20,529 nt of DNA from a virus. Its lineage: Duplodnaviria > Heunggongvirae > Uroviricota > Caudoviricetes > Demerecviridae. The notes under the pieces were generated by a model, which searched no databases, had not been told where the DNA came from, and saw only the letters and a program-made list of their open reading frames with translations. Positions 6,090 to 20,529 of this stretch are shown here, piece after piece. Positions within the stretch are counted from its first letter, which is position 1, and each line of letters starts with the position of its first letter. Where the stretch lies: positions 1-20,529 of the IMG/VR virus record IMGVR_UViG_2974655256_000001. One strand, given 5' to 3'. A program made the translations under genes and the position numbers.

Positions 6090-7406
6090 TTATTTCCCAC
6101 GGGAAATTGAGTAAATTCCATAACGCAGTGCGTCACAAAGGTGAGAGTTTGCATCATGACGTGGTTTTTCACGTGATAATTTCTCTTCGCCTTCCTGGAA
6201 GTCCCACTTGTAGTTCGCTAGGGCGTGGATCAATGAGGTACATGAAGCATCTACGATGATCTTACCTTGCTGGAACAGTGCTTGCAGGCATGCCAAACCA
6301 TCTAGGACAGATTTCTTAGCAGGAGCAGAAGCGATTTCATGTTCATATGCTAAGTCCTGACGGAACTGAGCAGCAGCGGAGTCTACAAATATACGATCAA
6401 CATTATAACGATCTATGCAGTGTTGGATATAAGCAGCATGTTGGGCTGTAGTCTTTTCAGCCTGCTGATACTCTTCCAGTACGTAATAAACATCAGTATC
6501 GTAGTGATACTTAATTGTAAGAACTGCTGTAGGATCACGGTAACCAACGTCAATGCCAAGCAATGTTTCGAATGCTTCATCATCTTTAAAGAAGTGACGC
6601 ATACCTTTGAGATCTTTAACATGGTCGATGGCATTAAAGGTATCGAAGATCTGACCTTCGAATACAGAGAAGTCAGCCTCATATTCCTGGCGGAAGTAGT
6701 TTTTACTAACTGTACGACGTGCTTCCTCAATGTCATTCAGGTCAGCACGAGGGTTATCACGATATGTACCATGAATAGATACCCAGTTAGGCAACGTATC
6801 ATCAAATCCGTAGGCGTAAAATTCTTTAAACCAGTTACCTCCACGAGGAGTAGAGATAAATAGAGCCTTAGAATTAGGTTTATCTAGGGTAGGACGCAAC
6901 TGAACTCTAAAGGCATCACCACCTACATCAGAAATTGCAGCCTCATCAAAGATGATAAAATCATATGAACGTCCAACTGCGGAGTCGGCCTGAGCCGCGG
7001 AAGCTAGTTTAAATAGAGAACCATTAGCTAACTCAATCTCTTTATCTTTAGCGTTCTCACGTTCGGTTTGTAGGCCATATTTTTTAATAAGACCACGAAT
7101 CTGAGACCATCCAATGTTGGCCAGTGAGTAGTTAGGGGCAACTACTAGCACCTTCACATTAGGTTCCAGCAATTTTAGGAACCCAAGTGTATATGCTATA
7201 AAGGACTTGCCTACACGGCGTGACACACACGCCGTTACAAAACGATGTCTAGGATCCTCTAAAGCATTGATGATTGCTATTTGAGGACCATTAGGTGTAA
7301 TACCTTCTTGTGCTAGTATTCCCGAAACAGGTAGGCGAAAGAAACGTTTGTCTATTCCGAAATCAATAACATCTACTGTGTTAACGTAGGGTCTTGATAC
7401 TTCCAT
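6090..7406 (-). CDS. terL: Terminase large subunit, 438 aa
   Basis: Walker A SRRVGKS, Walker B FIIFDEAA, motif III FISTPRG, RNase H-like GIDVG and C-terminal HLCDALRY. Confidence 0.96.
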   Translation of the reverse strand: MEVSRPYVNTVDVIDFGIDKRFFRLPVSGILAQEGITPNGPQIAIINALEDPRHRFVTACVSRRVGKSFIAYTLGFLKLLEPNVKVLVVAPNYSLANIGWSQIRGLIKKYGLQTERENAKDKEIELANGSLFKLASAAQADSAVGRSYDFIIFDEAAISDVGGDAFRVQLRPTLDKPNSKALFISTPRGGNWFKEFYAYGFDDTLPNWVSIHGTYRDNPRADLNDIEEARRTVSKNYFRQEYEADFSVFEGQIFDTFNAIDHVKDLKGMRHFFKDDEAFETLLGIDVGYRDPTAVLTIKYHYDTDVYYVLEEYQQAEKTTAQHAAYIQHCIDRYNVDRIFVDSAAAQFRQDLAYEHEIASAPAKKSVLDGLACLQALFQQGKIIVDASCTSLIHALANYKWDFQEGEEKLSREKPRHDANSHLCDALRYGIYSISRGK

Positions 7407-7888
7407 TACTTCTTACCTCCAGTAGCTAGGGAAGTAATTAAGTCCATGTAGTTTTGATCCCCAGCTCCAGCAATAATATTATTCTGGATGTTGGTCTGGT
7501 TAGCTGGAGTACGGGCTGCTGCCTTCACTTTCTCCAATTCTACCATCATTTTCATCTCTTCCATCTTCATTTTATGTGCCTTCCAGAGAATATCCATAAT
7601 ATCCTGGTCAGAACCCATACCGGTCTCTTCTAGTTCCTCTAGTTTACGCTTGATAACTTCATCCAGAACACCAAATAAACGATCTCTGTTACGGAATCCA
7701 CTTTCCATAAAAATATCATTTAAGTAGTTCTTAACTTCACTACGATTCATAATATCTCGGAAAGCAATTTCGGACATTCCAAGACTACGTGCGGCAGAAG
7801 GCACATCACTCCCACACTGTAAATAAGCTTCAATCACATCCATCCCTTCAGGGGACATAAGATCTGGTACTAATACATCATTTGCCAT
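7406..7888 (-). CDS. terS: Terminase small subunit, 160 aa
   Basis: N-terminal HTH-like segment ([12 protein letters not shown]), central helices, and TAATG coupling to terL. Confidence 0.8.
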
Positions 7889-9681: not shown

Positions 9682-9710
9682 TTGCTTTCATCTCTCTATT
9701 TTGCTATAAT
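9682..9710 (+). promoter_or_regulatory. Strong early sigma70 promoter for llp (T5 PN25-like)
   Basis: A/T UP element, TTGCTT (9682-9687), 17-nt spacer, TATAAT (9705-9710), then AGATTCATAAATT as in the recalled PN25. Confidence 0.85.
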
Positions 9711-9741
9711 AGATTCATAAATTAGAAATGGAGAGATAAAT

Positions 9742-10008: not shown

Positions 10009-10010
10009 TT

Positions 10011-10039
10011 AGTATAAAGCAAAAAGACATCTAAGTAAA
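10011..10039 (-). promoter_or_regulatory. Candidate late promoter for the pb5-terS-terL operon, reading antisense through llp
   Basis: A-tract UP element (AAAAAATAAAAAATT), TTTACT (10039-10034), 17-nt spacer, TATACT (10016-10011). Same -10 as the two other late-type promoters. Confidence 0.6.
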
Positions 10040-10185
10040 CTAAATTTTTTATTTTTTGGACGGTATATTGGCAGAAACCACTATGTAAGAAAAGTAGAAG
10101 TCCTTCTAGGAAGTCACGAGCATGGTTGGTTATGCACAAATTATAAAATATTTTAAAATATCCTATTTATTGGAGCATGAAAGAT

Positions 10186-10314
10186 ATGTCAAACAAAAGA
10201 AAGAACAGACGCGGAGAAGTGTACGAAGCGTGGATTAATATTTACGGATTTGGTTTTGTATTATTCCTAATCTTCGTAGGTTCTTGGTTAGCAGCTATGG
10301 CGGGGTGGATTTAA
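10186..10314 (+). CDS. Small membrane protein, 42 aa (not in ORF track)
   Basis: MSNKRKNRRGEVYEAWINIYGFGFVLFLIFVGSWLAAMAGWI: basic N-terminus plus one TM segment. GGAG lies 10 nt upstream and the stop overlaps the next ATG (TAATG). Confidence 0.7.
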   Translation: MSNKRKNRRGEVYEAWINIYGFGFVLFLIFVGSWLAAMAGWI

Positions 10315-10421
10315 TGGAATGGGTAATTATTGCATTACTAGGGATTGTGATTATTGGGCAGTGTATTCTAGATAATCACTTAGCTAGAATTGAAACCTTA
10401 TTATTGGAGAAATGTAAATGA
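10314..10421 (+). CDS. Small membrane protein, 35 aa (not in ORF track)
   Basis: MEWVIIALLGIVIIGQCILDNHLARIETLLLEKCK; TAATG overlap upstream and ATGA overlap downstream. Confidence 0.65.
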   Translation: MEWVIIALLGIVIIGQCILDNHLARIETLLLEKCK

Positions 10422-10612
10422 TGGAAGTGGCAGTTACACTAATAGTAATATTAGTCTGGGTAATCTTCATTGTCTCTCGTATTGCATATGTTCGCCTAAA
10501 AACTCTAGAAGCTCAGGTAAAACAACAACAAGTTACTCTAGAAAAGCTAGCACTACTGCAACGTTGTGATAGTACCCGTATTCTGCAAATTGAGAGGGAA
10601 TTAGATGTTTAG
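10418..10612 (+). CDS. Small membrane protein, 64 aa
   Basis: N-terminal TM (VAVTLIVILVWVIFIV) plus a coiled-coil-like tail; GGAG SD. Confidence 0.75.
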   Translation: MMEVAVTLIVILVWVIFIVSRIAYVRLKTLEAQVKQQQVTLEKLALLQRCDSTRILQIERELDV

Positions 10613-10850
10613 TATTGTAATTGCTTTTATTATCGGGATACTCGCGGGGGTTTTCGGGACAACTGCGGCAATTAACAAGCATCGTGAATACATTGCGGGA
10701 ATATCGCGGGAGCTTTCGGAAAGAGAGCGGAGGTTTGCGGAGAAACGTGCGGAGTTTGAGCGGGAGTGGTCGGATGGATCTCGGGCGTCGCGGAAGAGAT
10801 TCCGTATGTCAGAATCGGGAGATAAGCCAGTAGATAGGAGAAGTTCATGA
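10605..10850 (+). CDS. Small membrane protein, 81 aa, overlying a phased CGG array
   Basis: N-terminal TM (FSIVIAFIIGILAGVFG) plus a charged helical tail; GAGGG SD; overlaps both neighbours. Confidence 0.7.
   Translation: MFSIVIAFIIGILAGVFGTTAAINKHREYIAGISRELSERERRFAEKRAEFEREWSDGSRASRKRFRMSESGDKPVDRRSS
10634..10820 (+). repeat. Helically phased KCGG(R) array
   Basis: CGG starts at 10634, 10645, 10655, 10666, 10696, 10707, 10717, 10728, 10738, 10750, 10761, 10771, 10782, 10791 and 10816. The first 14 fit a period of about 10.5 bp. Confidence 0.85.
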
Positions 10851-11320
10851 TATTTAAGAAAATCCCTGATGAAATAGCTGGTAGTTTTTCATACGATCCA
10901 GATACGGGGCGATTCCTGCCTATTATAGGATATACTAAGGAAAGTGAAGGTTATCTCATATATCGTCACCCGCAGTTCGGAGAGTTTAGAGTGCATCGCC
11001 TCGCTTGGTGGTACATTTATGGGGAAGATCCGGGTGAATCTCTCATAGACCATAAAAACTGTGAAGGACTTGATAACCGAAAGAGTAACCTTCGTAAAGC
11101 GTCTCATGAGCAGAACTTGGCAAATCAGCGTCTGTCTAAGAACAATACTTCAGGAGTTAAGGGAGTATACTGGGACAACACTCGTAAGAAATGGAGAGCA
11201 CGTGGTAGACACCAGGGCAAATATTTTATTTCGGCTTACTTCGAGAGTCTTGAGGAAGCTGAGAGTGCAATAAGGGAAGCACGTGAGAAAGTATGCGGTG
11301 AGTTCACAAATCACGGTTAA
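10847..11320 (+). CDS. Free-standing HNH homing endonuclease with AP2-type DNA-binding domain, 157 aa
   Basis: VHRLAW...IDHKNCEGLDNRKSNLR...QNLAN HNH core, then NTSGVKGVYWD...KWRAR AP2 motif; AGGAG SD; ATGA overlap. Confidence 0.9.
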   Translation: MIFKKIPDEIAGSFSYDPDTGRFLPIIGYTKESEGYLIYRHPQFGEFRVHRLAWWYIYGEDPGESLIDHKNCEGLDNRKSNLRKASHEQNLANQRLSKNNTSGVKGVYWDNTRKKWRARGRHQGKYFISAYFESLEEAESAIREAREKVCGEFTNHG

Positions 11321-11439
11321 TAGCGCTAATTTGAAAATCTTGAAATTTCATAAGATTACACATGCGGATGTGCTCACTGCCTCCGGCGAAAATACTTAGT
11401 CTGCTAACCGCCACCCCCGTTACTATTAGCAGGGTAACT

Positions 11440-11476
11440 GTTTCATCCTGCAACCATTTTAATTGCAGGATGAAAC
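11440..11476. terminator. Perfect 14-bp hairpin closing the leftward pre-early operon
   Basis: GTTTCATCCTGCAA / TTGCAGGATGAAAC with a 9-nt loop, 17 nt past the dmp stop. The U tract is poor, so the terminator role is inferred. Confidence 0.55.
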
Positions 11477-11493
11477 TATTTCAACTTTAATTA

Positions 11494-12228
11494 TTACGCA
11501 ACTTTTAATTTCTCAATATATTGTTGCGGGCTGCAACTATATTCTGCGCGTTCTTCCTCGGTCATACTTTCCCAACATAATTTCAAACGATCAGCTAGGA
11601 ACTGATAATCATTATCATCATCGAGAGATTCATCAATAAAGGTTTCACCTATCAATGCCACGCCGATTGATAGAATATCATTAATGGCTTGCGCGTCCAG
11701 CGTTTTAAACCCGTATGATGCCGCTGCTGATAATACACCTTTATGATCATCAATCATCGTAAAATCAGCGTTCGGATATAGCTGTTTAAATAATTCAAAA
11801 TAATATGATTTATATATTGCGTCCTTACTGTGGTATATCTCGCTAACTTTATCAGCCTCAAAATATTTGTGTAGTGTATCGCGGGAAAATACACGGATAT
11901 TACTATCCCCACGCCCTCGCAATCCTTGTTTGCGCAAATAATAATAGTCCGACTTGCTCATCAGTCGAGCGGTGCAAATAATGTTTAACGTACTAACATC
12001 ATTCATGCACTGGCGCATATATGTAACAAGCGGCAATAGTGTATCTTGCATTATTAAATCATGTTTACATGCTTCATTTTTATACTTATTTAAATCTAAA
12101 TTGCCCTCGCTATCAAAGCAAGGCGCTACGCGATGGAAAGAATTAATGATAGTGCCGTCCAGATCCCAAATCATGACGCGGGAAATATGCGGGAAATTAC
12201 GGGTAATATTCGTTTTAACTTGATTCAT
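11494..12228 (-). CDS. dmp: Deoxynucleoside-5'-monophosphatase, HAD family, 244 aa
   Basis: HAD motif I WDLDGT, motif II CTAR, and a C-terminal MIDD; first pre-early gene of T5-likes. Confidence 0.92.
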   Translation of the reverse strand: MNQVKTNITRNFPHISRVMIWDLDGTIINSFHRVAPCFDSEGNLDLNKYKNEACKHDLIMQDTLLPLVTYMRQCMNDVSTLNIICTARLMSKSDYYYLRKQGLRGRGDSNIRVFSRDTLHKYFEADKVSEIYHSKDAIYKSYYFELFKQLYPNADFTMIDDHKGVLSAAASYGFKTLDAQAINDILSIGVALIGETFIDESLDDDNDYQFLADRLKLCWESMTEEERAEYSCSPQQYIEKLKVA

Positions 12229-12258
12229 TTTGTTACGTTCTCCATTTAAGGGATTAGA

Positions 12259-12305
12259 TTAATTCAGCATTACCCGCTATTTATAAGCGGGTAATAATAA
12301 ATTAA
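12259..12305 (-). other. Intergenic hairpin with internal loop before dmp
   Basis: 10-bp upper stem ATTACCCGCT / AGCGGGTAAT, 4x4 internal loop, 6-bp lower stem. Confidence 0.7.
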
Positions 12306-12308
12306 CTA

Positions 12309-12701
12309 TTAAAGACCATACGCCAACGCATCAGCAATAAAACTAATATCTTCACCAGATACACCGGAACGAATGCCCGCGCAGGTATATACCTTTGCGC
12401 TGGTCAATTGATCATCAAAGCAAGCTGGGCAAGGCGCGACAACTGCAAAGGCTAGACCGGATTTTACGGCGTCAATGATAATCGTTTCTTGTTTCACTGT
12501 GTCAACATAAACACCTGCGGCCTTAATGTAGCTACTTGCGCGCCCTTGCGTATAGGCAAAGGTAGTAACCTGCAAAGCGTCATTGAAATCTAACAGATCA
12601 TCAATAACGTGCCCCGCCTCAACGTGATACCGCTCACCATTAGAATAAACCAGAACGATGGAAGATTGAGCGCGATCGAATGGGATATTTTGCTTTTTCA
12701 T
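12309..12701 (-). CDS. Pre-early hypothetical protein, 130 aa (T5 gene 02 position)
   Basis: GGAG SD; size and position as in T5. Confidence 0.8.
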   Translation of the reverse strand: MKKQNIPFDRAQSSIVLVYSNGERYHVEAGHVIDDLLDFNDALQVTTFAYTQGRASSYIKAAGVYVDTVKQETIIIDAVKSGLAFAVVAPCPACFDDQLTSAKVYTCAGIRSGVSGEDISFIADALAYGL

Positions 12702-12722
12702 ATTTATATAACTCCAATTAGT

Positions 12723-13232
12723 TTAATAAGGGATATTAAATTCTTTACACTTTGATTTAACCCATTCTAAAAGAATAGATAAATCATAATTGCCTTTTGA
12801 AACATATTTATTTGTTATAGGGTTTTTAATTTTTGCCCTGTAATATTCTCCCGCTATGGGATCAACTTTATCAAGATAAATATATTTCGGTAATTTATTA
12901 CGCCTTTTATAATCACTCTTATTTGTCATATTAACAGCATGAGTAACTAGGCGTAAATTATTTATATTGTTGTTAACGGGGTAAGAAATTATTTTATGAT
13001 CTATATCTAAATCAGGGTTAATTTCTTTATTAAATAAAACCCAAATTAAACGATGAGCTTTATATAATTCACCATTAATCATTACATCATAATAGCCTGT
13101 CTGATTTAATGTTCCCGCTACACTTCCAGCCTTCACACCGGGCTTACTTATTTTCCATCGTAAAAATGATGGGCTAGATTCATCATAATAAACATTCTCG
13201 TTAACTTCATTAAAATCTATTTCTTTTGCCAT
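12723..13232 (-). CDS. Free-standing HNH endonuclease, 169 aa, between A1 and the 130-aa gene
   Basis: AHRLIW...DIDHK...NNNINNLRLVTHAVN; visibly more AT-rich than its neighbours; GGAGG SD. Confidence 0.88.
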   Translation of the reverse strand: MAKEIDFNEVNENVYYDESSPSFLRWKISKPGVKAGSVAGTLNQTGYYDVMINGELYKAHRLIWVLFNKEINPDLDIDHKIISYPVNNNINNLRLVTHAVNMTNKSDYKRRNKLPKYIYLDKVDPIAGEYYRAKIKNPITNKYVSKGNYDLSILLEWVKSKCKEFNIPY

Positions 13233-13236
13233 TTAT

Positions 13237-13274
13237 AATCCTCCAATTAATATTGTCTCACTAATTGGAGGATT
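13237..13274 (-). promoter_or_regulatory. 13-bp hairpin burying the SD of the HNH gene
   Basis: mRNA AAUCCUCCAAUUA - 12-nt loop - UAAUUGGAGGAUU, then AUAA AUG. Confidence 0.75.
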
Positions 13275-13302
13275 TAGGCAAATAAGATTTTAATTTATTG
13301 GC

Positions 13303-14970
13303 TTACTGTACAAAAAATTTACCGTTCTTAAAGTCGATCAAAGTACGCTGACCATTTGCATAGGTAATTAAATGCGTTTGTGTCCAGCTTGACGCGCCAA
13401 CGTTGTAACCCATGTCCAGACTACCAGCCACGCCAGCGGTATATACCCCGCCGTAAATGCTGGCGGTATGAGTGTGCCCCGTGTTTAATTTGCCCAATTT
13501 CTTAAACTGTTTCGGATTGCCACGGCTGCCGTTTATGCCATTGTGACCGTGTACGCCGCATTCAATGCCTGCAATTTTAAATGATTGGTCAGTCGTTAGG
13601 AAAATGGCGTTAAACTCGCAACCTGCAACCTTACGCAGCGCATAATCTAGCACGTTGAAAGTATCGTCTTTTTCTGCAATAGCTCCGTAAATCGCGGCAT
13701 TCAGGCGGTGATATAGTTCCGCGTTCGCTGGGTCGTCTTTAATGTTAGCATTACGATCATCAAGCCAACGGGATAGCGCCAAATCGTGATTCGATTCAAC
13801 AATGATTGTTTGCGAGAAATCGCGCTCCATTGATTCCAGTACGCGCCCCGTATCGATGAGATCATCCAGAACTTTATCACGTCCGGCGGCGTATTGTTTC
13901 GCTAGGAATACACCAGAGGCGCGGTTGTGATGGTTGCGTGATGTAAAGTCGTGAACGTCATGGATAAACTGATATTTTGGTTTAAGAATATCAAGCAAGC
14001 TATTTTCGCCAGCCCATGACGCGGCGGCGCACTCTTCATCTAATTTTTCTGCGTGAATATCGCCGTATTGTAAGCCTAAAACATGCCCCGATGTTTCATA
14101 GCATCCGGCGGGAGTAGCGCAAACATTCAGATCATAAAACACCCCGCTTTCGTCCATTGTTTCAAGCTGGCGAACAAAAAACTCACCGTCTTCGTCGAAC
14201 TCAACAATCAGCGCACCGAAATTATGCAGCGCCTCGGCCTTTTGTCCTGCTTTCTGCTGAATGTAATTTTTGAGCGTTGCCGTTCCGGTTGAATACATGC
14301 GGCGCACAATTTCACCTTTTAAAGCTGGCACGCTTTCGGCGGTGATTTTAGCCGCTCCAATTGCCAGACCTTCCAGATTAAGCGCGGTTGCAGTTTCAGC
14401 GAATCCAGAAAGCGGATAATCTGCGGTTGGCAAAACATTAATTTCAGCCATGAAAGCAAAACGGCGATTATTCAAAAACACGTTTTTATTGCAGATATAT
14501 TTGTCAAATGCTGAATCATATTTGATTCCGTCTGCGCCCTCGCCATTTTGGAATCCGTTTTTATTATAAATATACTTGCTAACCAGCAAATCAGCGCCGA
14601 TATATTTAGCAAATTGCTCCAGTGAGGCTAAAAAGTTTTTATGCGGGAACGTATTATTCTGAATCGATGTAATAATAAAGCGTTTGCCTTGTTTTACTTC
14701 CCAGCTTTCCACCGTGCTAGAAACAATCCCCGCCGCTTCTGGGCGCTCATCGTTTTTAATGGCTTTTGCTACTTTCGCCGCTTTCGGTTTCGCTGGTTTA
14801 TTTGCTTCCAGCCAATCACAAATAGCGGTGGAATGTTTTGGAGTATCGTAAACCGCTTTTGATATATCGTCGCAGACCTCCAGTTTAGTAGCGCGCAGAC
14901 GTTTACCGTAGAAATTAAAGTCAGCGGCCATTTTCAGGATAACGGTTTGTTTTTCTGCGGAAATAATCAT
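13303..14970 (-). CDS. A1: A1 protein (host DNA degradation, second-step transfer), 555 aa
   Basis: Size and position in the FST; calcineurin-like metallophosphoesterase motifs GDIH, HDVHD, SNHD, VHGH and GHTH. Confidence 0.9.
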   Translation of the reverse strand: MIISAEKQTVILKMAADFNFYGKRLRATKLEVCDDISKAVYDTPKHSTAICDWLEANKPAKPKAAKVAKAIKNDERPEAAGIVSSTVESWEVKQGKRFIITSIQNNTFPHKNFLASLEQFAKYIGADLLVSKYIYNKNGFQNGEGADGIKYDSAFDKYICNKNVFLNNRRFAFMAEINVLPTADYPLSGFAETATALNLEGLAIGAAKITAESVPALKGEIVRRMYSTGTATLKNYIQQKAGQKAEALHNFGALIVEFDEDGEFFVRQLETMDESGVFYDLNVCATPAGCYETSGHVLGLQYGDIHAEKLDEECAAASWAGENSLLDILKPKYQFIHDVHDFTSRNHHNRASGVFLAKQYAAGRDKVLDDLIDTGRVLESMERDFSQTIIVESNHDLALSRWLDDRNANIKDDPANAELYHRLNAAIYGAIAEKDDTFNVLDYALRKVAGCEFNAIFLTTDQSFKIAGIECGVHGHNGINGSRGNPKQFKKLGKLNTGHTHTASIYGGVYTAGVAGSLDMGYNVGASSWTQTHLITYANGQRTLIDFKNGKFFVQ

Positions 14971-15014
14971 GATAATAAAACTCCATTAAAGGGATTAGAT
15001 TAATAACGGCAATA

Positions 15015-15058
15015 TTGCCAAATATAACGCCTCGAATAATAGGCGTTATAATTTGCAA
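15015..15058 (-). other. Intergenic hairpin before A1
   Basis: TATAACGCCT / AGGCGTTATA 10-bp stem with a bulged extension, next to the palindrome GGCAATATTGCC (15008-15019). Confidence 0.7.
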
Positions 15059-15060
15059 CA

Positions 15061-15258
15061 TTAATTTAAAGGCATAAGGCTAGAACTAACACCACAAGCA
15101 ACGGCGGCAATAAAACAAAGCAAGCCCAAACGTTTTGCTAATTTAGATTTACGTTTAAAATAATACGAATCTAAATCATTTTGAAAATAAGCGAATAATA
15201 ATGAGGCCGCCATAATAAACAAGCCTAGAATTAATGATTCAGTAGGAAAGAAAATCAT
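15061..15258 (-). CDS. Pre-early membrane protein, 65 aa (T5 gene 05 position)
   Basis: Two hydrophobic segments around a basic loop; AGGAG SD. Confidence 0.8.
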   Translation of the reverse strand: MIFFPTESLILGLFIMAASLLFAYFQNDLDSYYFKRKSKLAKRLGLLCFIAAVACGVSSSLMPLN

Positions 15259-15304
15259 TTTTTAAAACTCCTGATTTAAGGGAAGAAAATAACTATCGCT
15301 AAAC

Positions 15305-15348
15305 AGTTATATTATTGCCCCCTCACTAAAAGGGGGCAAGGTATAACT
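15305..15348 (-). other. Intergenic hairpin with internal loop after A2
   Basis: TTGCCCCCT / AGGGGGCAA, 3x2 internal loop, AGTTATA / TATAACT. Confidence 0.7.
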
Positions 15349-15349
15349 A

Positions 15350-15757
15350 TTATTCGCCTGCGGCTTGTTTTACTTCATCGGCAACGCCTAACAGTTGCGC
15401 TACTGCGTCCAGCGTTTCAAGTTTTGCACTTTCCAGACTTGCCAGATCATCGGCGTCTTTGATAATGCCGGAATCGATAGCGTGTTTTGCAATAACGCGT
15501 ACATAATGAGCTTTGCGGATTGAACTACCGCCGCCGACTTTGCGCGGCTTATCGCTTTTTTGATATGCTTTCGCGCTGGTCAATTTTGACCGAACGGATA
15601 CGGGAGAAGCCGCGCCCACTGCTTTTGCAATCTCTTTTAAACCGTCGCTATTTGCGAAATCTAAACCGTTTTCATTAATTAACTGTTGATACATGGAAAC
15701 AGCTTTCTGAGTGTTTTCTTCATTCCATGCGAATTTTGCGGTTTTTGCGTTAGTCAT
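15350..15757 (-). CDS. A2: A2 protein (DNA-binding, second-step transfer), 135 aa
   Basis: MTNAKTAKFAWNEENTQKAVSMYQ N-terminus, size and position match recalled T5 A2. Confidence 0.88.
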   Translation of the reverse strand: MTNAKTAKFAWNEENTQKAVSMYQQLINENGLDFANSDGLKEIAKAVGAASPVSVRSKLTSAKAYQKSDKPRKVGGGSSIRKAHYVRVIAKHAIDSGIIKDADDLASLESAKLETLDAVAQLLGVADEVKQAAGE

Positions 15758-15803
15758 GATGTAAACTCCTATTAGTTTAATTTAAGGGATTAGATTAACT
15801 TAA

Positions 15804-15850
15804 TGTTAATCGTTATATCCCCCTGAAATAAGGGGGATATAAAGTTAACA
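15804..15850 (-). other. Intergenic hairpin with internal loop before A2
   Basis: 12-bp TTATATCCCCCT / AGGGGGATATAA, 3x2 internal loop, TGTTAA / TTAACA. Confidence 0.7.
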
Positions 15851-15855
15851 CTAAA

Positions 15856-16107
15856 TTACAGAACAGCTTCCCATTTTTCGTTACGTTGAACAACCTTTAC
15901 AGCGTCGCCGGATTTAACGCGAACGTTATAAACAGTTTTTCCGTTGTTACTCCGTTCCGTTTCAGCATATACCGCATCAATTACATCAAACGGCATAAGC
16001 GCCGCGCCTTTGATGCGTTCGGCTTTTCCGGTTAGTTCATCCGTTTTAGTAACGAAAGGAATAAAAACGGATTGACCAATTTTAGGCGCATTAGTAACGT
16101 TTTTCAT
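15856..16107 (-). CDS. Pre-early hypothetical protein, 83 aa (T5 gene 07 position)
   Basis: GGAG SD; position upstream of A2. Confidence 0.8.
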   Translation of the reverse strand: MKNVTNAPKIGQSVFIPFVTKTDELTGKAERIKGAALMPFDVIDAVYAETERSNNGKTVYNVRVKSGDAVKVVQRNEKWEAVL

Positions 16108-16131
16108 GGTATAAACTCCAGTTTATTCAGT

Positions 16132-16186
16132 GGATTGTTCCGCATTACCTGCTGTAAAAGTAGTGGCAGGTAATAAGTAACAATCC
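16132..16186 (-). other. Intergenic hairpin with 4x4 internal loop in the operon leader
   Basis: GGATTGTT / AACAATCC plus ATTACCTGC / GCAGGTAAT; the upper stem is nearly identical to the one before dmp. Confidence 0.7.
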
Positions 16187-16314
16187 GTTCGCCAATATAA
16201 TCAATTTAAAGAACTCCACTCAGGCCGCTATATCCCAGTTAGGGGGCGGGACACATTATGGTAAGTGCCGACCGTCAAATTTTATCAAGTTATCGCTCTC
16301 ATCGAACTGGGTAC

Positions 16315-16343
16315 ATCTTAAAGCCTATCGGCTAGGGTGTCAA
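16315..16343 (-). promoter_or_regulatory. Strong sigma70 promoter (T5 PD/E20-like)
   Basis: TTGACA, CCCTAGCCGATAGGCTT (17 nt), TAAGAT, matching the recalled PD/E20. The -35 contains the TGA stop of the 67-aa gene. Confidence 0.85.
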
Positions 16344-16543
16344 ACTGTTTTTTGCAGTTTTTTATGATTTTCTTTCAAGTCAATCATAATATTTCGCCAG
16401 ATCATTTCCAGACCTTGCTGGCGGCCTTTCTTGTACTGCTTAAATCGATATTTTACCGATCTTTGCGCTACTGTCAACAAATTTTTTGTTTTGCTGTCCA
16501 GTGCCTTGCTAGGTTTACCAGTGATCAATAAAGTTTGTTTCAT
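16340..16543 (-). CDS. Pre-early basic protein, 67 aa (T5 gene 08 position; possible Hdi-type FtsZ inhibitor)
   Basis: AAGGA SD; Lys/Arg-rich. The function is suggested only by position relative to T5.008. Confidence 0.65.
   Translation of the reverse strand: MKQTLLITGKPSKALDSKTKNLLTVAQRSVKYRFKQYKKGRQQGLEMIWRNIMIDLKENHKKLQKTV
16450..16477 (-). promoter_or_regulatory. Sigma70 promoter inside the 67-aa gene (T5 PH22-like)
   Basis: A-tract, TTGACA (16477-16472), 16-nt spacer, TAAAAT (16455-16450), then ATCGATTTA as in the recalled PH22. Confidence 0.8.
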
Positions 16544-17041
16544 ATCGTCGATTCCTTATAGTATATATAAGTTTACCGCCGATAGGCTTTAAGATATACC
16601 CAATTTTTAAAGAGCGCGGCGGTAAACTTCCCGCCGTGTAGTTCGTCATTGCCGCCCTACGAGATAAATAATAGGGGATTCCCGAAAATGGCGCAACCTT
16701 ATTTTTGTAAAGAAACGTAAAGACAAAATTCACCTCACCACGTCCGGCGACGGCCTAAATTAAAAGAAACGGGCGCGCGAGTACCACAAAACATAGCAGA
16801 TAGGCAAGTAATTTTTTCATTTATATTTGCTTTGCCCTACTTGACAAAATCTAAAAAGCTCGTGGCAGCGATAAACGGCTTATCCCTTTATGATTGGATG
16901 GCTAAAACTTTCATCGCGTTCTAGGGCGTTTTAGGCGGCTTATTTTCGACTTAACAAATCATTAACAACCGCAAAATTGAAAAATAGTTGTAAAAGGTCT
17001 TGACTTTTAAAAATCAAGACTAAATGAGTTAATTTATAAAA

Positions 17042-17566
17042 TTAATTAATTGACTGTTTAAATTCTTCTCTTTTTTGTTCTAACCATAATAATAACGTAT
17101 CTAAATCATAACCACATTTACTAACTTTTTTCTTAGTAATAGGATTCGTAATTTGAGCACGCAAATAATCACGGCCTAAACTATCACGCGGTCGCTTTTT
17201 ATCATAGTAAATATTAGTAGGCAAACCATTAGCACGTAATTTATAACCACGGTTACTAATATTCTGCAACTGAGTAGCTAGGCATAAGTTTTCAATGTTA
17301 TTATTTTGCCTGTTACGGTCTAGATGGTCGATTGTTAGATTGCTATCTATTTCTTTATGAAATAATACCCATATGATACGATGTACTGCGTATTCTGAGT
17401 TATTAATAGTTACGCGATAATAATCACCGGTACTAATATAACCAGCAATATCCCCAGCTTTTTTATTACCCTTATCAACTTTCCACCTTAGAAATGATGG
17501 CGATGTTTCATCATAATAAAAGTTATCATTAGCAAGCTCATATTTTATATCTTTATATTTACCCAT
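17042..17566 (-). CDS. Free-standing HNH endonuclease, 174 aa, in the divergent control region
   Basis: VHRIIW...TIDHLDRNRQNNNIENLCL; aligns end to end with the 169-aa HNH; AAGGA SD. Confidence 0.88.
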   Translation of the reverse strand: MGKYKDIKYELANDNFYYDETSPSFLRWKVDKGNKKAGDIAGYISTGDYYRVTINNSEYAVHRIIWVLFHKEIDSNLTIDHLDRNRQNNNIENLCLATQLQNISNRGYKLRANGLPTNIYYDKKRPRDSLGRDYLRAQITNPITKKKVSKCGYDLDTLLLWLEQKREEFKQSIN

Positions 17567-17605
17567 AATATAGTTTCCTTATGCTATTAGTTTAATCTCT
17601 ATTAT

Positions 17606-17614
17606 ATTATATCA
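17606..17614 (-). promoter_or_regulatory. Extended -10 promoter candidate for the HNH gene
   Basis: TG-A-TATAAT about 40 nt upstream of the ATG; no -35 match. Confidence 0.5.
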
Positions 17615-17673
17615 AAATAGTTAGCAGACTACCTAATAAGTTTTTACTGTAGTGAGAACCACTATCATTTAAG

Positions 17674-17766
17674 TTATCCACAAGTTTATTAACAGCATTT
17701 TTTGACTTGACACAATAGGAAGGATTTACAGCACTTTTGCACAGAGTTATTCACAGGTTATCCTAC
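17674..17766 (+). promoter_or_regulatory. DnaA-box cluster
   Basis: TTATCCACA (17674), TTTTGCACA (17735) and TTATTCACA (17747) fit TTWTNCACA. Degenerate copies are TTATTAACA (17686) and TTATCCTAC (17758). All have the same orientation. Confidence 0.7.
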
Positions 17767-17783
17767 TGTATAAATATACAGGG
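17764..17783. promoter_or_regulatory. LexA (SOS) box
   Basis: TACTGTATAAATATACAGGG versus the E. coli consensus TACTGTATATATATACAGTA: intact CTG-N10-CAG, 17/20 identical. Confidence 0.75.
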
Positions 17784-17824
17784 TAAACGGATAGCATATT
17801 ATATGGATGTCGATTTTAAGGCAT

Positions 17825-17904
17825 CTAGAACGCTCTATAACGCGCTTTCTTGCTGGTGGCCTTATTAAAGTAAAGCCAGTTTTAAGCGTTATACAGCGTT
17901 ATAG
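17825..17904. repeat. Inverted pair of 10-bp-spaced GCGTTHTAS dyads
   Basis: CTAGAACGCTCTATAACGC (17825-17843) and GCGTTATACAGCGTTATAG (17886-17904) pair with 2 mismatches. A third dyad is at 16916-16934. Confidence 0.65.
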
Positions 17905-17969
17905 GAGTAAACGCGCGATTAGCACATTTTTAGCAATTGGGCAAGGAAAATAAAAAGGTAAAATAAACG

Positions 17970-17999
17970 TTGCCCCTAAAAAGAAAATACGTTTATCAT
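17970..17999 (+). promoter_or_regulatory. Promoter candidate for the rightward pre-early operon
   Basis: A-rich UP element, TTGCCC, 18-nt spacer, TATCAT, about 30 nt before the GGAGG-preceded ATG at 18032. Confidence 0.55.
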
Positions 18000-18031
18000 T
18001 CTTCTACCGATTAACGAGGGAGGCCGAACAA

Positions 18032-19042
18032 ATGAGGCTATATAAACCAGATAACGCAACCGTCTTAAAAGGTGCATTGCGCAACCTGCTGGACGGTAGC
18101 AAGTCAACCAGCATTAAACATTTTATTAACAAGGCTGAAACTATTCATCAAAACTTTTTTGATGACTATGACGCCTATGATATGGATGGTTTTTTGCCAT
18201 TATACAAGTATGGGGCAACGCTAGTTTTATATAATCGGGATTGCCATATCTTTACGGGCAGGGGAGCGGGGCCGGATACCGATTTTATTATTGCGCAGGG
18301 TAATAATATTGTTGCGTATCATAGCAATTCAGGCCGTCAATCATTTAATATAAATGGTTTTGAGCTTATTGGGCTTGATCTGATAAATGGACTTTCTAGC
18401 ATTGAGGGATTTTTAGATGTTATCTGGAAGTATTTACCCGCTGGATGGCATAAGCCGGATAACGACGGATCTCAATATACTGGTATAATGGCTTTTGATG
18501 GCGATGGTAATTTTTTGTTACCTTCGAAATTATACCCGTATGTTTATAATGATCTGATAGAAGAAGCCGGGTTTTCTTTCTGGAAAGATGAAGATCAGAT
18601 TATTGACAGCGTAGAAAACCATGCTGTAAATTCTAACACTCAAAGCGTTAACACTCAAACTACTGAAAACAAAGGAAAAAACACCATGACCAAGATTGCT
18701 AACATCGTTGCCGCTAATAAATCCGCCGTTGTTAACGCTGCTAAACTGGAAGCGGGTAAAATTGCACTGACTCAAATCACAAAAGTAGCGGCGAAAAAAG
18801 CGCCGTTTATGATTAAAGGTTATATTGATACTCCGATTGGTCGCGTAGTGATCGCTAACCTGCTGAGTGTAGCGGTTGACCAGTACGCCCCGACTAATGC
18901 GAAAGCTAAAGCGGTAGCAGGCGCGGCAATGGAAGCGGCAATGTTGGAAATGGTACAGAGTTTCAATATTGCGGAAATGATCGATGAAATGGTAAAAGGT
19001 ATTGACATTTCTACTTTTACCACTAACACCGAAAGCGAGTAA
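18032..19042 (+). CDS. Pre-early hypothetical protein, 336 aa (T5 gene 10 position), with a possible internal start
   Basis: GGGAGG SD; first rightward FST gene; two parts separated by an N/T/S/Q linker. Confidence 0.85.
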   Translation: MRLYKPDNATVLKGALRNLLDGSKSTSIKHFINKAETIHQNFFDDYDAYDMDGFLPLYKYGATLVLYNRDCHIFTGRGAGPDTDFIIAQGNNIVAYHSNSGRQSFNINGFELIGLDLINGLSSIEGFLDVIWKYLPAGWHKPDNDGSQYTGIMAFDGDGNFLLPSKLYPYVYNDLIEEAGFSFWKDEDQIIDSVENHAVNSNTQSVNTQTTENKGKNTMTKIANIVAANKSAVVNAAKLEAGKIALTQITKVAAKKAPFMIKGYIDTPIGRVVIANLLSVAVDQYAPTNAKAKAVAGAAMEAAMLEMVQSFNIAEMIDEMVKGIDISTFTTNTESE

Positions 19043-19079
19043 TAATAACTAGCGGGGAAATAATCCCCGCTTTACTATT
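19041..19079 (+). other. Intergenic hairpin after the 336-aa gene
   Basis: AGCGGGGA / TCCCCGCT followed by TTACTATTT; either a weak terminator or a processing stem. Confidence 0.65.
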
Positions 19080-19109
19080 TCCCTGTTAATTGTTAGGAGA
19101 CTAGTTATT

Positions 19110-19418
19110 ATGCAACTAAATCAAATCATGTTAGCGCAATTAGCCGAAAAAATGCCGAATAGCCCACATGTTAATTATTCGGACGATCAAAGCAGTATTC
19201 CTATATGGGAAAAGCAAGGGCGTCCCTTTTTATGGGAACATGTAGAAAGCGCGAATAATTATCATGCTTTCTTTGATCGTGGTTATGGCTGGCTATGTAT
19301 TTTTGTAGATGAAACTTTGCTGGATTATGGAATGGATGAAATAGTCCGTGATGACGTAATTTTCTTAAATAAAGGATTTTACAGTGTAGCAAATTCTCTT
19401 TATTTCCCTGCTAATTAA
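19110..19418 (+). CDS. Pre-early acidic hypothetical protein, 102 aa
   Basis: AGGAG SD; by hand count about 14 D/E versus 6 K/R. Confidence 0.8.
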   Translation: MQLNQIMLAQLAEKMPNSPHVNYSDDQSSIPIWEKQGRPFLWEHVESANNYHAFFDRGYGWLCIFVDETLLDYGMDEIVRDDVIFLNKGFYSVANSLYFPAN

Positions 19419-19431
19419 TAGGAGGCTAGTT

Positions 19432-19926
19432 ATGTCAGAAGAAAAATATGGCTTTTCGCTAGAAAGTGTGAATGAAGCTAAACACGATATGATAGTTTTA
19501 GTTGATTGTCATACTGGCTATTGCGGAGAAGGCTGGACGGAGGAACATTTTGTTCCCGCTGGCTGTGATCTGGACGCTTTCGCAAACGAACACGCATATG
19601 ATAATGCTTCTCGTTTCGGTAGCGATGGGGAAGAAGATGAAGAAACAGGGGAATGGATTGAAAATGATAATGTATATGCGAGTCTTTATCATTATCAATT
19701 GAGTAAGTCCGGTACTTATGTAAATGGCGGCGATCCTATTAATACCGTTATGAAACTAATTATTAAACACGGTGGCGCGGAAATAATTGGTAACAAGGCG
19801 TTATTATATGCAAATCGATTAAAACAGCTTGTTTATATTCCTGATAATTCCCGTTGGGATGAATATGCCGTTTTACAGAAAGAACTAAAACGCTGTTTCG
19901 GCGTGGAAGCATTAGAAATAGTCTAA
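19432..19926 (+). CDS. Pre-early hypothetical protein, 164 aa, with a very acidic N-terminal half
   Basis: AGGAGG SD; contains DGEEDEETGEWIEND. Confidence 0.85.
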   Translation: MSEEKYGFSLESVNEAKHDMIVLVDCHTGYCGEGWTEEHFVPAGCDLDAFANEHAYDNASRFGSDGEEDEETGEWIENDNVYASLYHYQLSKSGTYVNGGDPINTVMKLIIKHGGAEIIGNKALLYANRLKQLVYIPDNSRWDEYAVLQKELKRCFGVEALEIV

Positions 19927-19939
19927 TGTAAAGTTTTGT

Positions 19940-19968
19940 AAAGGTCGCCTTAATCGGCGGCCTTTTTT
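19940..19968 (+). terminator. Intrinsic terminator
   Basis: AAAGGTCGCC - TTAATC - GGCGGCCTTTTTT. Confidence 0.85.
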
Positions 19969-19976
19969 GTTATAAT
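19968..19976 (+). promoter_or_regulatory. Extended -10 promoter abutting the terminator
   Basis: TG-T-TATAAT immediately after the U tract. Confidence 0.6.
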
Positions 19977-20034
19977 GCCTTTACACCGAAACGGTGGATT
20001 GAAAATTTTCCCAAAATTTTTTGGAGGCGTTAAA

Positions 20035-20262
20035 ATGGTACATTCTTCATCTTCTGCAATTTTTAATGGTATGGAATGGGTATCCGTTCCCGCTATTGTC
20101 AGCGTTATGGTTTCTGAGTTCGGCATAGGTAAAACTTATGTTACCATTCAGGGGCTTTACGACAATGACAAGATTGATCAGCAAACCGCCGGATTTTTGC
20201 TGGATGAATTGAAAGCTAACCATTGCACCAAAAAGCAAGCGGCAAAAATCGTTTTAATGTAA
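20035..20262 (+). CDS. Pre-early hypothetical protein, 75 aa (start moved from 19975)
   Basis: GGAGG (20023-20027) lies 7 nt before the ATG at 20035; the ATG at 19975 overlaps the -10 box. Confidence 0.75.
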   Translation: MVHSSSSAIFNGMEWVSVPAIVSVMVSEFGIGKTYVTIQGLYDNDKIDQQTAGFLLDELKANHCTKKQAAKIVLM

Positions 20263-20315
20263 TTAATAAAGGGGCGTTACTTTCGCCCCTCATTCCCTTA
20301 CTAGGAGTTATGCAA

Positions 20316-20528
20316 ATGTTAAAGAATGTTTCCCTTGCCCGTTCTAAAGGTTTTAAGCTGGTGGATGTTAACACGTTCGAGCGTCCAGATTGTAAAATCG
20401 AATATGTAGCACGCAACAAAAACGCTTTCCGTGTTACAGAAAAGAAATTTGACAAGCGCGGCAATTTGGTAGCCGAAACGGTTAAGCACTTTGCCACCTT
20501 TTACGCTGCGTTTCGTGGGGTGTTATAA
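20316..20528 (+). CDS. Pre-early basic hypothetical protein, 70 aa (start moved from 20223)
   Basis: AGGAG (20303-20307) lies 8 nt before the ATG at 20316, preceded by the hairpin AGGGGCG / CGCCCCT; TAA at 20526-20528. Confidence 0.75.
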   Translation: MLKNVSLARSKGFKLVDVNTFERPDCKIEYVARNKNAFRVTEKKFDKRGNLVAETVKHFATFYAAFRGVL

Positions 20529-20529
20529 T

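What the first reader, a model, noticed from the sequence alone, without database searches (positions are those of the whole stretch)
10634..10820. Helically phased CGG array hidden in a gene just before the inferred genome end
Seen: CGG spacings of 11, 10, 11, 30, 11, 10, 11, 10, 12, 11, 10, 11, 9 (then 25). That is 157 bp over 15 turns, or 10.5 bp per turn. Every CGG is preceded by T or G, and all are on one strand. They fall in all three codon positions of the 81-aa ORF (5 as CGG Arg, 8 after GCG/TCG, 2 across codons), so a protein repeat does not explain them. Flanking genes lack the pattern. Inference: a DNA-level signal on one helical face, most simply a multimeric protein wrapping site. 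Candidates are TerS or the terminal-repeat duplication machinery, which must locate the repeat boundary a few hundred bp away. I know of no description of this.
Basis: partly seen in the sequence, partly recalled or inferred. Interest (0 to 1): 0.85.

Follow-up and report, generated by a model that had tools for sequence, protein, structure and literature searches.

The report
Helically phased CGG lattice beside T5 terminal repeat
A small membrane-protein gene of this T5-like phage carries one CGG per turn of the DNA helix, a conserved and apparently undescribed signal beside the terminal-repeat boundary that probably docks a protein, though its role in genome-end formation is untested.

Summary
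Fifteen CGG lie at 10634-10818 with the stated spacings (mean 10.5 bp), inside the 81-aa gene 10605-10850 (T5.162 type).

- **Not chance:** it is the strongest trinucleotide cluster and the strongest 10-11-bp lattice in the 111.6-kb genome.
- **Not a protein effect:** CGG is the rarest Arg codon. Genome codon usage predicts 2.6 CGG (maximum 9 of 20,000). No synonymous permutation of 20,000 reaches the observed phasing.
- **Conserved:** all 34 distinct T5-like sequences examined keep the lattice, T5 and BF23 included. Klebsiella Sugarlandviruses carry a phased CGG array in a different protein context at the same place.
- **Position:** in T5, BF23 and Sugarlandviruses it ends 67-100 bp outside the left boundary of the terminal repeat. 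Here a 517-bp HNH-AP2 insertion moves the boundary to about 11371.
- **Limits:** there is no second array at the other boundary. Related genera with the same boundary motif lack the array, and its distance to the boundary varies.

Best reading (0.4): a one-face protein-binding site on duplex DNA that serves concatemer-junction processing, with TerS as the untested candidate. The main rival is a Rho loading site on the antisense RNA.

An earlier agent of this scan (e1-222041) reached a similar reading on another T5-like genome. I found no published description.

The parts
10634..10818 (+). Lattice of 15 K-CGG-R sites. A block of 4 (10634-10668) is followed by a 30-bp gap, a block of 10 (10696-10793) and one outlier at 10816. 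Mean spacing is 10.5 bp.
10605..10850 (+). The 81-aa single-pass membrane-protein gene (PHROG 6447, T5.162 type) that carries the lattice. It is a real gene: third codon positions vary most among relatives.
10806..11322 (+). A 517-bp insertion relative to T5 that holds the HNH-AP2 homing endonuclease gene (CDS 10847-11320). It replaces the 3' end of the 81-aa gene and pushes the array away from the repeat boundary.
   Evidence: (joint 10805/11323)
11323..11370 (+). Conserved pre-boundary motif (GCGCTAA ... AAATTTCATAAGATTACACATG ...) that stays adjacent to the repeat boundary in T5, BF23, Sugarlandviruses and AAS21.
11371..20529 (.). Terminal repeat. The single assembled copy starts at about 11371 by homology to base 1 of T5 and runs to about 22449 of the genome, beyond the window end.
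11440..11476 (.). 14-bp inverted repeat just inside the repeat and after the dmp stop. A T-rich tail follows only on the + strand, so it probably terminates the llp operon and not the minus-strand dmp transcript.
   Evidence: sequence read directly; the terminator role is inference
11494..12228 (-). dmp (5'-deoxynucleotidase), the first gene inside the repeat. It is transcribed toward the array.
7406..7888 (-). Small terminase subunit (PHROG 3802), identical in sequence to T5 TerS. It is the candidate reader of the array, but this was not tested.

Best explanation
The lattice is a cis-acting signal read on double-stranded DNA. About 13-15 copies of the short word K-CGG-R sit once per helical turn over roughly 185 bp, separated by AT-richer spacers. 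All copies therefore face one side of the helix, and the segment bends easily in one direction. This is the geometry expected for cooperative binding or wrapping by an oligomeric protein.

The signal is overprinted on the last small membrane-protein gene before the right terminal repeat. In replicating concatemers it lies on the unique-sequence flank of the junction, where the left genome end is cut. I infer that it recruits or organises a phage protein complex at that junction for end formation or packaging. TerS, a predicted HTH-plus-helical-core protein, is the prime candidate. The array would act as an accessory recruitment site, not as a ruler, and the cut position itself is more likely set by the separately conserved 48-bp boundary motif.

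Shown: the lattice exists, is statistically exceptional, works at nucleic-acid level, is conserved, and has a conserved position. Inferred: that it is read as duplex DNA, that a protein binds it, which protein that is, and the link to packaging.
For: 1. Statistics: see the observation check.
2. In-phase Arg codons are CGG, although CGG makes up only 13 of 1009 Arg codons in long ORFs. Out-of-phase Arg codons are CGT, AGA or AGG. All 15 sites carry the C and a K before it, where AAG|G, GAG|G or AGG would have supplied GG alone. The selected unit is therefore the 4-5-bp word K-CGG-R.
3. The 10.5-bp periodicity of GC-rich steps is the strongest in the genome. AT-rich steps run in counter-phase (166 degrees), and the six best combined windows all overlap the array.
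4. The lattice is present in all 34 distinct T5-like sequences (8-17 CGG, z 5.4-11.7), including T5 and BF23.
5. phiR2-01 keeps CGG positions through amino-acid replacements and one switch of reading phase.
6. Sugarlandviruses carry 13 phased CGG in a 153-aa ORF with a different protein context (synonymous-permutation P = 1e-4).
7. The position is conserved. The array ends about 100 bp (T5, BF23) or about 67 bp (K7_rec27) outside the left repeat boundary.
8. Two further genera have short G-rich tandem repeats at the same relative place, partly non-coding: 21 bp x3 GCGTGAG in G003 and 11 bp x4 TAGTGAG in PR1.
9. TerS is 93-100% identical among array-bearing T5-likes. In a low-confidence model its N-terminal four-helix domain weakly resembles the SF6 small-terminase DNA-binding domain 4zc3 (TM 0.73 over 55 residues, E = 2.4, not significant).
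Against: - No protein-binding data exist, and nothing here ties TerS to CGG.
- No second array or related lattice lies at the right repeat boundary. That region has only an unphased G-rich stretch.
- Nine of the 26 sequences in the first alignment, this window included, carry 0.5-kb insertions between array and boundary. Any function must tolerate 100 versus 580 bp.
- AAS21 (TerS 60% identical) and Cody (46%) keep the boundary motif without an array. IME260 (63%) has one. Array presence therefore does not track TerS similarity.
- Phage bobsandoy keeps only 8 sites.
- Extra conservation of synonymous positions inside CGG is only marginal within the clade (P about 0.04-0.055).
- From established knowledge, T5 injects its left end first. 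The left boundary is therefore probably where packaging ends, not where TerS would start it.
- The repeats in G003 and PR1 are not significant as lattices.
Confidence: 0.4

Rival explanations
1. Rho loading (rut) site on the antisense RNA. Minus-strand transcripts leaving dmp in the right repeat copy run into the array. There the RNA is C-rich and G-poor and carries a CC dinucleotide every 10-11 nt. Rho would bind it and stop pre-early or early transcription from reading antisense through llp and into the late tail-receptor and terminase genes.
For: - Over 10720-10797 the minus-strand RNA would be 46% C and 14% G.
- Regularly spaced YC dimers and C>G skew are the best predictors of Rho terminators, and (YC)N9-13 is the published search rule (PMC6144790).
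- The hairpin after dmp has a T-rich tail only on the + strand.
- This reading explains why distance to the boundary does not matter, why other genera can do without the array, and why the repeats at the same place in G003 and PR1 share G-rich/C-poor composition but not the motif.
Against: - The C of CGG, which is a G in this RNA, is invariant, and so is the K before it. Both are unexplained and run against G-poverty.
- The best-conserved sites, 10634-10666, lie where the skew is weak.
- The Sugarlandvirus array has only 60 G against 42 C.
- Half of the spacings give 8-nt linkers, below the N9 rule.
- 88 other windows in the genome have stronger skew.
Confidence: 0.18
2. The physical nature is the same, a one-face protein-binding lattice on duplex DNA, but the process is different. 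Possible roles are a transcriptional insulator or roadblock between the repeat and the unique region, a replication or recombination site, or a binding site for a host nucleoid protein.
For: All the evidence for a DNA-level signal applies. The absence of a partner array at the other boundary and the tolerance of insertions fit a role not tied to the cut site.
Against: The position next to the repeat boundary is conserved in two genera with different gene contexts. I know of no E. coli nucleoid protein with a CGG word (own knowledge). TRF finds no iteron-like longer unit.
Confidence: 0.14
3. The array is mainly a landing pad for the HNH-AP2 homing endonucleases that insert at its 3' edge. AP2 domains are known to bind GCC/CCG-type words, and the array persists through the dynamics of the selfish element.
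For: - The only AP2 match in this genome, and the only one in IME260, is the HNH gene abutting the array. PR1, Cody and AAS21, which lack the array, have none.
- The HNH-AP2 genes next to arrays in five lineages form one family, 29-48% identical across lineages.
- The complement of K-CGG is CCG-M, the core shared by the plant GCC and DRE boxes (own knowledge).
Against: A homing site needs one target, not 15 phased copies. T5, BF23 and K7_rec27 lack the HNH gene yet keep the array. Selection on a phage does not preserve its own vulnerability to a homing enzyme.
Confidence: 0.08
4. There is no present function at nucleic-acid level. The lattice would be a relic of old 21-bp (heptad) duplications in a gene for a transmembrane helix plus an amphipathic helix, whose 3.5-residue periodicity happens to equal 10.5 nt.
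For: CGG-bearing codons fall at i, i+4, i+7 positions (derived). Hydrophobic residues I30, I33, L37, F44 and F51 follow the same heptad. Two heptads, RELSERE and RRFAEKR, look related. Site-wise synonymous conservation is only marginal.
Against: Protein periodicity cannot explain the choice of the rarest codons only at in-phase positions. TRF finds no repeat. The lattice recurs in a Ser/Gly-rich protein context in Sugarlandviruses and survives amino-acid and phase changes.
Confidence: 0.07
5. A plus-strand RNA signal in the llp-operon mRNA, for example a cluster of GGA-type sites that titrates CsrA or another RNA-binding protein.
For: Read from the site list, 11 of the 15 sites contain GGA. 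All sites are in the mRNA sense.
Against: The invariant core is CGG, not GGA. Highly conserved sites such as GCGGCA and TCGGGC lack GGA. Strict 10.5-nt phasing has no known meaning for such proteins (own knowledge).
Confidence: 0.04

Closest known systems
Small-terminase recognition sites built from phased short repeats inside coding DNA (SPP1/SF6 pacL-pacR, P1 pac hexamer clusters, lambda cosB R sites). Recalled from my own knowledge.
   Same: Multiple short words lie on one helical face over 100-200 bp, near a terminase cut, and are often embedded in a gene. They are thought to wrap around or bend onto a TerS ring.
   Different: - Those sites lie in or next to terS, on the side where packaging starts.
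- Here the array is 2.7 kb from terS and outside the repeat, at the end that is probably packaged last.
- It is separable from the cut by 0.5 kb.
- The word is only 4-5 bp, repeated 13-15 times.
- TerS binding is untested.
T7 SRL/SRR short-repeat arrays flanking the direct terminal repeat. Recalled from my own knowledge, and also named by the earlier scan note e1-222041.
   Same: Arrays of short imperfect repeats lie immediately outside a direct terminal repeat at the concatemer junction, in a phage that must duplicate its repeat. Their function is still unclear.
   Different: T7 has arrays on both flanks, made of 7-bp units in non-coding DNA. T5-likes have an array on the left flank only, written through a gene, with strict helical phasing.
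Type II plasmid centromeres and iteron arrays (for example R1 parC, 2 x 5 eleven-bp iterons bound by ParR). Recalled from my own knowledge.
   Same: One binding word per helical turn, arranged in two blocks, bound cooperatively into a curved nucleoprotein filament.
   Different: Iterons share the whole 10-11-bp unit. Here only K-CGG-R is shared, and TRF finds no repeat. No adjacent ribbon-helix-helix or ParR-like gene is present, and the phage is lytic.
Rho utilisation (rut) sites (PMC6144790)
   Same: C>G skew and regularly spaced CC dimers on the minus-strand RNA.
   Different: The conserved word includes a G on that RNA. The spacing is at or below the lower limit of the published rule, and the skew is weak in the best-conserved block and in Sugarlandviruses.

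Membership tests
Terminase small-subunit recognition site (pac/cosB type) | Lies at a fixed, short distance from the terminase cut site | tested here: not met
   About 100 bp in T5 and BF23, about 67 bp in K7_rec27, but about 555-580 bp here and in other relatives with insertions.
Terminase small-subunit recognition site (pac/cosB type) | Repeated short words phased with the DNA helix | tested here: met
   15 sites with a mean spacing of 10.5 bp; z = 11.7, the top value in the genome.
Terminase small-subunit recognition site (pac/cosB type) | Specifically bound by the cognate TerS and required for packaging | not testable with these tools
   Only indirect evidence: TerS is 93-100% conserved among array-bearing phages and has a weak HTH-like N-terminus.
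T7-type repeat arrays flanking a direct terminal repeat | Arrays on both flanks of the repeat | tested here: not met
   No lattice or CGG cluster at the right boundary, about 22449 of the genome.
Iteron or centromere array | Whole 10-22-bp units similar to each other | tested here: not met
   TRF finds nothing at score 30. Only positions -1 to +5 are shared.
Rho utilisation site | C>G skew on the transcript | tested here: met
   The minus-strand RNA would be 37-46% C and 14-17% G over 10680-10837. The skew is weaker over 10634-10680 and in Sugarlandvirus.
Rho utilisation site | YC dimers separated by 9-13-nt linkers | tested here: inconclusive
   The linkers are 8-9 nt, from spacings of 10-11, against the N9-13 rule.
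Rho utilisation site | Rho-dependent transcript ends downstream | not testable with these tools
   Only assembled contigs of RNA libraries were available, and these carry no information on ends or strand.
Codon periodicity caused by an amphipathic or heptad protein helix | Periodicity disappears once the amino-acid sequence is held fixed | tested here: not met
   With the protein fixed, 0 of 20,000 synonymous permutations reach the observed phasing. Genome codon usage gives 2.6 CGG against 15.
AP2/GCC-box-type target array for HNH-AP2 endonucleases | An AP2-domain protein is encoded wherever the array occurs | tested here: not met
   T5 has only a weak AP2 hit elsewhere in its genome (E = 0.0018). 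BF23, T5 and K7_rec27 have no HNH gene between the array and the boundary motif.

The most novel reading that the evidence does not exclude
A bare trinucleotide lattice, CGG once per helical turn and overprinted on a gene, would be the long-missing cis-element of the T5 concatemer junction. It would act as a nucleosome-like wrapping site that loads the terminase or repeat-duplication machinery, so that each packaged genome receives a full 10-kb terminal repeat. Lineage-specific motif variants (GTGAG-type repeats) would occupy the same place in other Demerecviridae.
Probability: 0.25. Interest if true: 0.85.

Novelty: new variant of a known kind. Interest (0 to 1): 0.62.

Why it matters
T5 has been a model phage for 70 years. 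It is still unknown how its terminase finds the genome ends and how the 10-kb terminal repeat is regenerated from concatemers. My searches of the held literature found no cis-acting site defined for either step.

This lattice is the most exceptional sequence feature in the genome. It sits beside the left repeat boundary, is conserved in at least three genera, and can be removed by purely synonymous recoding. That gives a clean genetic handle on the question.

It is also a clear case of a DNA signal shaping a protein. Eleven of the 27 invariant residues of the small membrane protein lie in codons that overlap a CGG. If the Rho rival is right instead, the array would be an unusually regular natural rut site that insulates late genes from repeat-borne promoters.

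Tried and rejected
- **Tandem repeat:** TRF found nothing in 10400-11500 at score 30.
- **Second array:** none found at the right repeat boundary or anywhere else in the genome.
- **T5 nick sites:**
  - The published consensus R/GCGCRGG (PMC3517423) lies on the minus strand at 21981, 22925, 34836, 52002 and 90488 of the genome.
  - Four of these sites (8.6, 19.1, 33.1 and 64.5% from the repeat's left end) fit the classical major-nick map recalled from my own knowledge (7.9, 18.5, 32.6 and 64.8%).
  - The array's CGGs are on the other strand, so I rejected a nick-site reading.
- **Imported GC-rich DNA:** rejected, because G (72) far exceeds C (33) and only one CCG is present.
- **G-quadruplex:** from inspecting the sequence, the G runs are too short and too far apart, and they are not conserved in T5.
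- **Overlapping +1-frame ORF 10621-10833:** it is open, but variation among relatives follows frame 0.
- **Public reads:**
  - Only assembled contigs were available, so they gave no information on molecule ends or on strand.
  - RNA-library contigs of a T5-like phage span the array, the boundary and dmp. This does not show a single transcript.
- **Pattern scan of IMG/VR for five CGG at 11/10/11/10 spacing:** it returned mostly GC-rich chance hits or true 21-bp and 11-bp tandem repeats, and nothing comparable to this overprinted lattice.
- **Metagenome scan:** it added only seven close relatives.
- **TerS fold:** the model was poor (pLDDT 56) and Foldseek gave no significant match.
- **TerS similarity versus array presence:** no clean correlation.
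- **Literature:** searches on T5 and BF23 termini, packaging and the injection-stop region found no description of the array.

Full report
**What the window is.** The window comes from a T5-like phage (Demerecviridae, Markadamsvirinae). The region 9700-11400 is 88-95% identical to the best of 397 matching Salmonella and Escherichia T5-like records, including BF23.

The local gene order is as follows:
- TerL, 6090-7406, minus strand.
- TerS, 7406-7888, minus strand, PHROG 3802.
- Receptor-binding protein, 7899-9656, minus strand.
- llp lipoprotein, 9742-10008, plus strand.
- Several tiny membrane-protein genes, the last being the 81-aa gene 10605-10850 (PHROG 6447).
- An HNH-AP2 endonuclease, 10847-11320.
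- The pre-early genes dmp (11494-12228, minus strand) and A1.

The assembled genome has 111,601 bp and holds one copy of the terminal repeat.

Every site is preceded by G or T, and 14 of 15 are followed by a purine, so the word is K-CGG-R. The only caveat is one CCG at 10802.

The genome holds 737 CGG, so 1.25 are expected per 190 bp. The array has 15 and the next-best window has 8. No other trinucleotide reaches this 12-fold local enrichment. A Rayleigh test for 10.25-11-bp phasing, run over all 64 trinucleotides and the whole genome, ranks this array first with z = 11.7.

**A protein repeat does not explain it.**
- CGG makes up 13 of 1009 Arg codons in the phage's long ORFs. GCG and TCG are also rare.
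- With the 81-aa protein held fixed and codons drawn from genome usage, the mean is 2.6 CGG and the maximum 9 in 20,000 trials.
- With the gene's own synonymous codons permuted, none of 20,000 trials reaches the observed periodic resultant.
- Of 30 positions where CGG is synonymously possible, the 15 in use are the in-phase ones. Out-of-phase Arg codons are CGT, AGA or AGG.
- The CGG-bearing codons do follow an i, i+4, i+7 pattern, and the protein is a transmembrane helix followed by an amphipathic helix. A heptad periodicity therefore coexists with the lattice, but it cannot account for the codon choice.
- The gene is real. Among relatives, third codon positions vary most.
- Eleven of the 27 invariant residues lie in codons that overlap a CGG. 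The DNA signal therefore appears to constrain the protein.

**It looks like a duplex-DNA signal.** GC-rich and AT-rich dinucleotide steps both oscillate at 10.5 bp, 166 degrees out of phase. The six best combined windows in the genome all overlap the array. This is the signature of DNA that bends in one preferred direction and presents one face.

**Conservation.**
- In 26 sequences (window, T5, BF23, GSP044 and 22 IMG/VR T5-likes), 13 of 14 main sites are kept in at least 18. Several are kept through Ser/Ala or Thr-Ala/Leu-Gly replacements.
- With 34 distinct sequences, every one keeps a lattice (8-17 CGG, z 5.4-11.7).
- Individual sites do turn over, and the extra conservation of synonymous positions inside CGG is only marginal (P about 0.04-0.055).
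- Yersinia phage phiR2-01 is the most distant carrier of the gene in the tblastn listing (about 70% protein identity). It has 13 CGG with 11/10/11 spacings, and one site has moved from GCG|G to a CGG codon.
- Phage bobsandoy keeps only 8 sites.
- Klebsiella Sugarlandviruses (IME260, K7_rec27, vB_Kpn_3) carry 10-13 phased CGG in the last ORF before the repeat. That ORF is a 153-aa protein whose array-bearing part is Ser/Gly-rich. Synonymous permutation gives P = 1e-4.
- No CGG lattice exists in Providencia PR1, Pantoea AAS21, Vibrio Cody, Aeromonas AhSzw-1 or the IMG/VR genome G003.
- PR1 (11 bp x4 TAGTGAGAT) and G003 (21 bp x3 with GCGTGAG) do have G-rich tandem repeats 65-290 bp outside their left repeat boundary, partly in non-coding DNA. 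As lattices these are not significant.

**Relation to the genome end.**
- In the T5 record the repeat copy begins 42 bp after the stop of the 81-aa gene and about 100 bp after the last main CGG.
- The PhageTerm-defined BF23 repeat begins at the same place (PMC10644984).
- In K7_rec27 the array ends about 67 bp before the same motif.
- A 48-bp motif (GCGCTAA ... AAATTTCATAAGATTACACATG ...) always abuts the boundary. In this window it is at 11323-11370, so the repeat begins at about 11371.
- Between array and motif this phage has a 517-bp insertion (10806-11322) that carries the HNH-AP2 gene. Contigs of a T5-like phage skip exactly this segment.
- Nine of the 26 sequences in the first alignment carry some insertion at this spot. 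The array is therefore near the boundary but not at a fixed distance from it.
- The right boundary, at about 22449 of the genome and outside the window, has an unphased G-rich stretch and no lattice.

**Candidate readers.**
- TerS is identical to T5 TerS and 93-100% identical among array-bearing T5-likes.
- It is 63% identical in IME260, which has an array, and 60% in AAS21, which has none. There is no clean correlation.
- The AlphaFold model is poor (pLDDT 56). It shows an N-terminal four-helix domain (pLDDT 69-82) followed by long helices. Its best terminase-related structural hit is the SF6 small-terminase DNA-binding domain, and that hit is not significant.
- From established knowledge, T5 injects its left end first. 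The left boundary is therefore probably the last DNA packaged, which argues against a classical initiation site.

**The HNH-AP2 association.** The only AP2-domain match in this genome is the HNH gene that abuts the array. The same is true in IME260, and the array-less genomes tested have none. The HNH-AP2 genes at this spot in five lineages form one family, 29-48% identical across lineages. AP2 domains are known to bind GCC/CCG-type words (own knowledge). The array, or its edge, is therefore probably this family's homing platform. That explains the insertion hotspot. It does not explain why HNH-free phages keep the array.

**The Rho rival.** Read on the minus strand, the array gives RNA that is 37-46% C and 14-17% G, with a CC every 10-11 nt. 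It lies downstream of dmp, whose hairpin lacks a T-tail in that direction. Published predictors of Rho terminators are exactly C>G skew and regularly spaced YC dimers, with linkers of 9-13 nt (PMC6144790). This reading fits the indifference to distance and the dispensability in other genera. It does not explain three things: the invariant C and K of the word, the strong conservation of the first four sites where skew is weak, and the modest skew in Sugarlandviruses.

**Other checks.** The T5 nick consensus R/GCGCRGG (PMC3517423) maps to the minus strand. Four of its five sites fit the classical nick map recalled from my own knowledge. The array is on the other strand and is not a set of nick sites. 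I found no description of the array in papers on T5 or BF23 genomes, termini or the injection-stop region. An earlier agent of this scan reached a similar reading on another T5-like genome (e1-222041). That is not independent evidence.

**Verdict.** The lattice is a real, conserved and apparently undescribed nucleic-acid signal.
- I give about 0.6 to its being a one-face protein-binding site on duplex DNA.
- Within that, 0.4 goes to a role in concatemer-junction processing or packaging, as an accessory recruitment site and not a ruler.
- The Rho rut rival gets 0.18.
- The remaining rivals get 0.04-0.08 each.

Its interpretation is partly supported, and its specific prediction of a partner array at the other boundary fails.

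Noticed in passing
window 10847-11320; L034 1962-2441; L031 1706-2203; L017 2706-3203; L018 2679-3215: One family of HNH-AP2 homing endonucleases (29-48% identical across lineages) sits at the 3' edge of the CGG array in Tequintavirus, Epseptimavirus and Sugarlandvirus. It is the only AP2-domain gene in this genome and in IME260. AP2 domains bind GCC/CCG-type words, so the array may be its docking site.
   Followed up: partly
window 11323-11370, and equivalents in L024, L001, L166, L037 and L209: A conserved motif of about 48 bp (GCGCTAA ... AAATTTCATAAGATTACACATG ...) always abuts the left terminal-repeat boundary. It is present even in genera that lack the CGG array, and is a better candidate for the actual cut-site signal.
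   Followed up: partly
genome G000 positions 21981, 22925, 34836, 52002 and 90488 (minus strand; outside the window): The published T5 nick consensus R/GCGCRGG occurs five times on the minus strand, at 8.6, 9.4, 19.1, 33.1 and 64.5% from the repeat's left end. Four of these sites fit the classical T5 major-nick map recalled from my own knowledge. Only two full matches lie on the plus strand.
   Followed up: partly
genome G000 about 22190-22450 (outside the window; last 250 bp of the terminal repeat): The strongest G-over-C skew in the genome (0.6) lies just inside the right repeat boundary. It is purine-rich and not helically phased. Its function is unknown.
   Followed up: no
L209 1200-1325 (IMG/VR 2595698685) and L035 2290-2445 (Providencia phage PR1): G-rich tandem repeats (21 bp x3 with GCGTGAG; 11 bp x4 TAGTGAGAT) lie 65-290 bp outside the left repeat boundary, partly in non-coding DNA. 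They may be positional analogues of the CGG array with a different word.
   Followed up: partly
L126 880-1010 (IMG/VR 2706795839, unrelated contig): A non-coding run of about 14 tandem 10-11-bp units (ATCGGAGTATT-like). It is a classical iteron or centromere-like array, found by the CGG-spacing pattern scan.
   Followed up: no
window 11440-11476: A 14-bp inverted repeat directly after the dmp stop has a T-rich tail only on the plus strand. It probably terminates the llp operon inside the repeat and leaves minus-strand dmp transcripts without an intrinsic terminator.
   Followed up: no
window about 12246-12276: In DNA run X3, contigs break here and mean depth steps from about 3350 to about 5360. 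This is not at the homology-inferred repeat boundary (11371), and I have no explanation for it.
   Followed up: no
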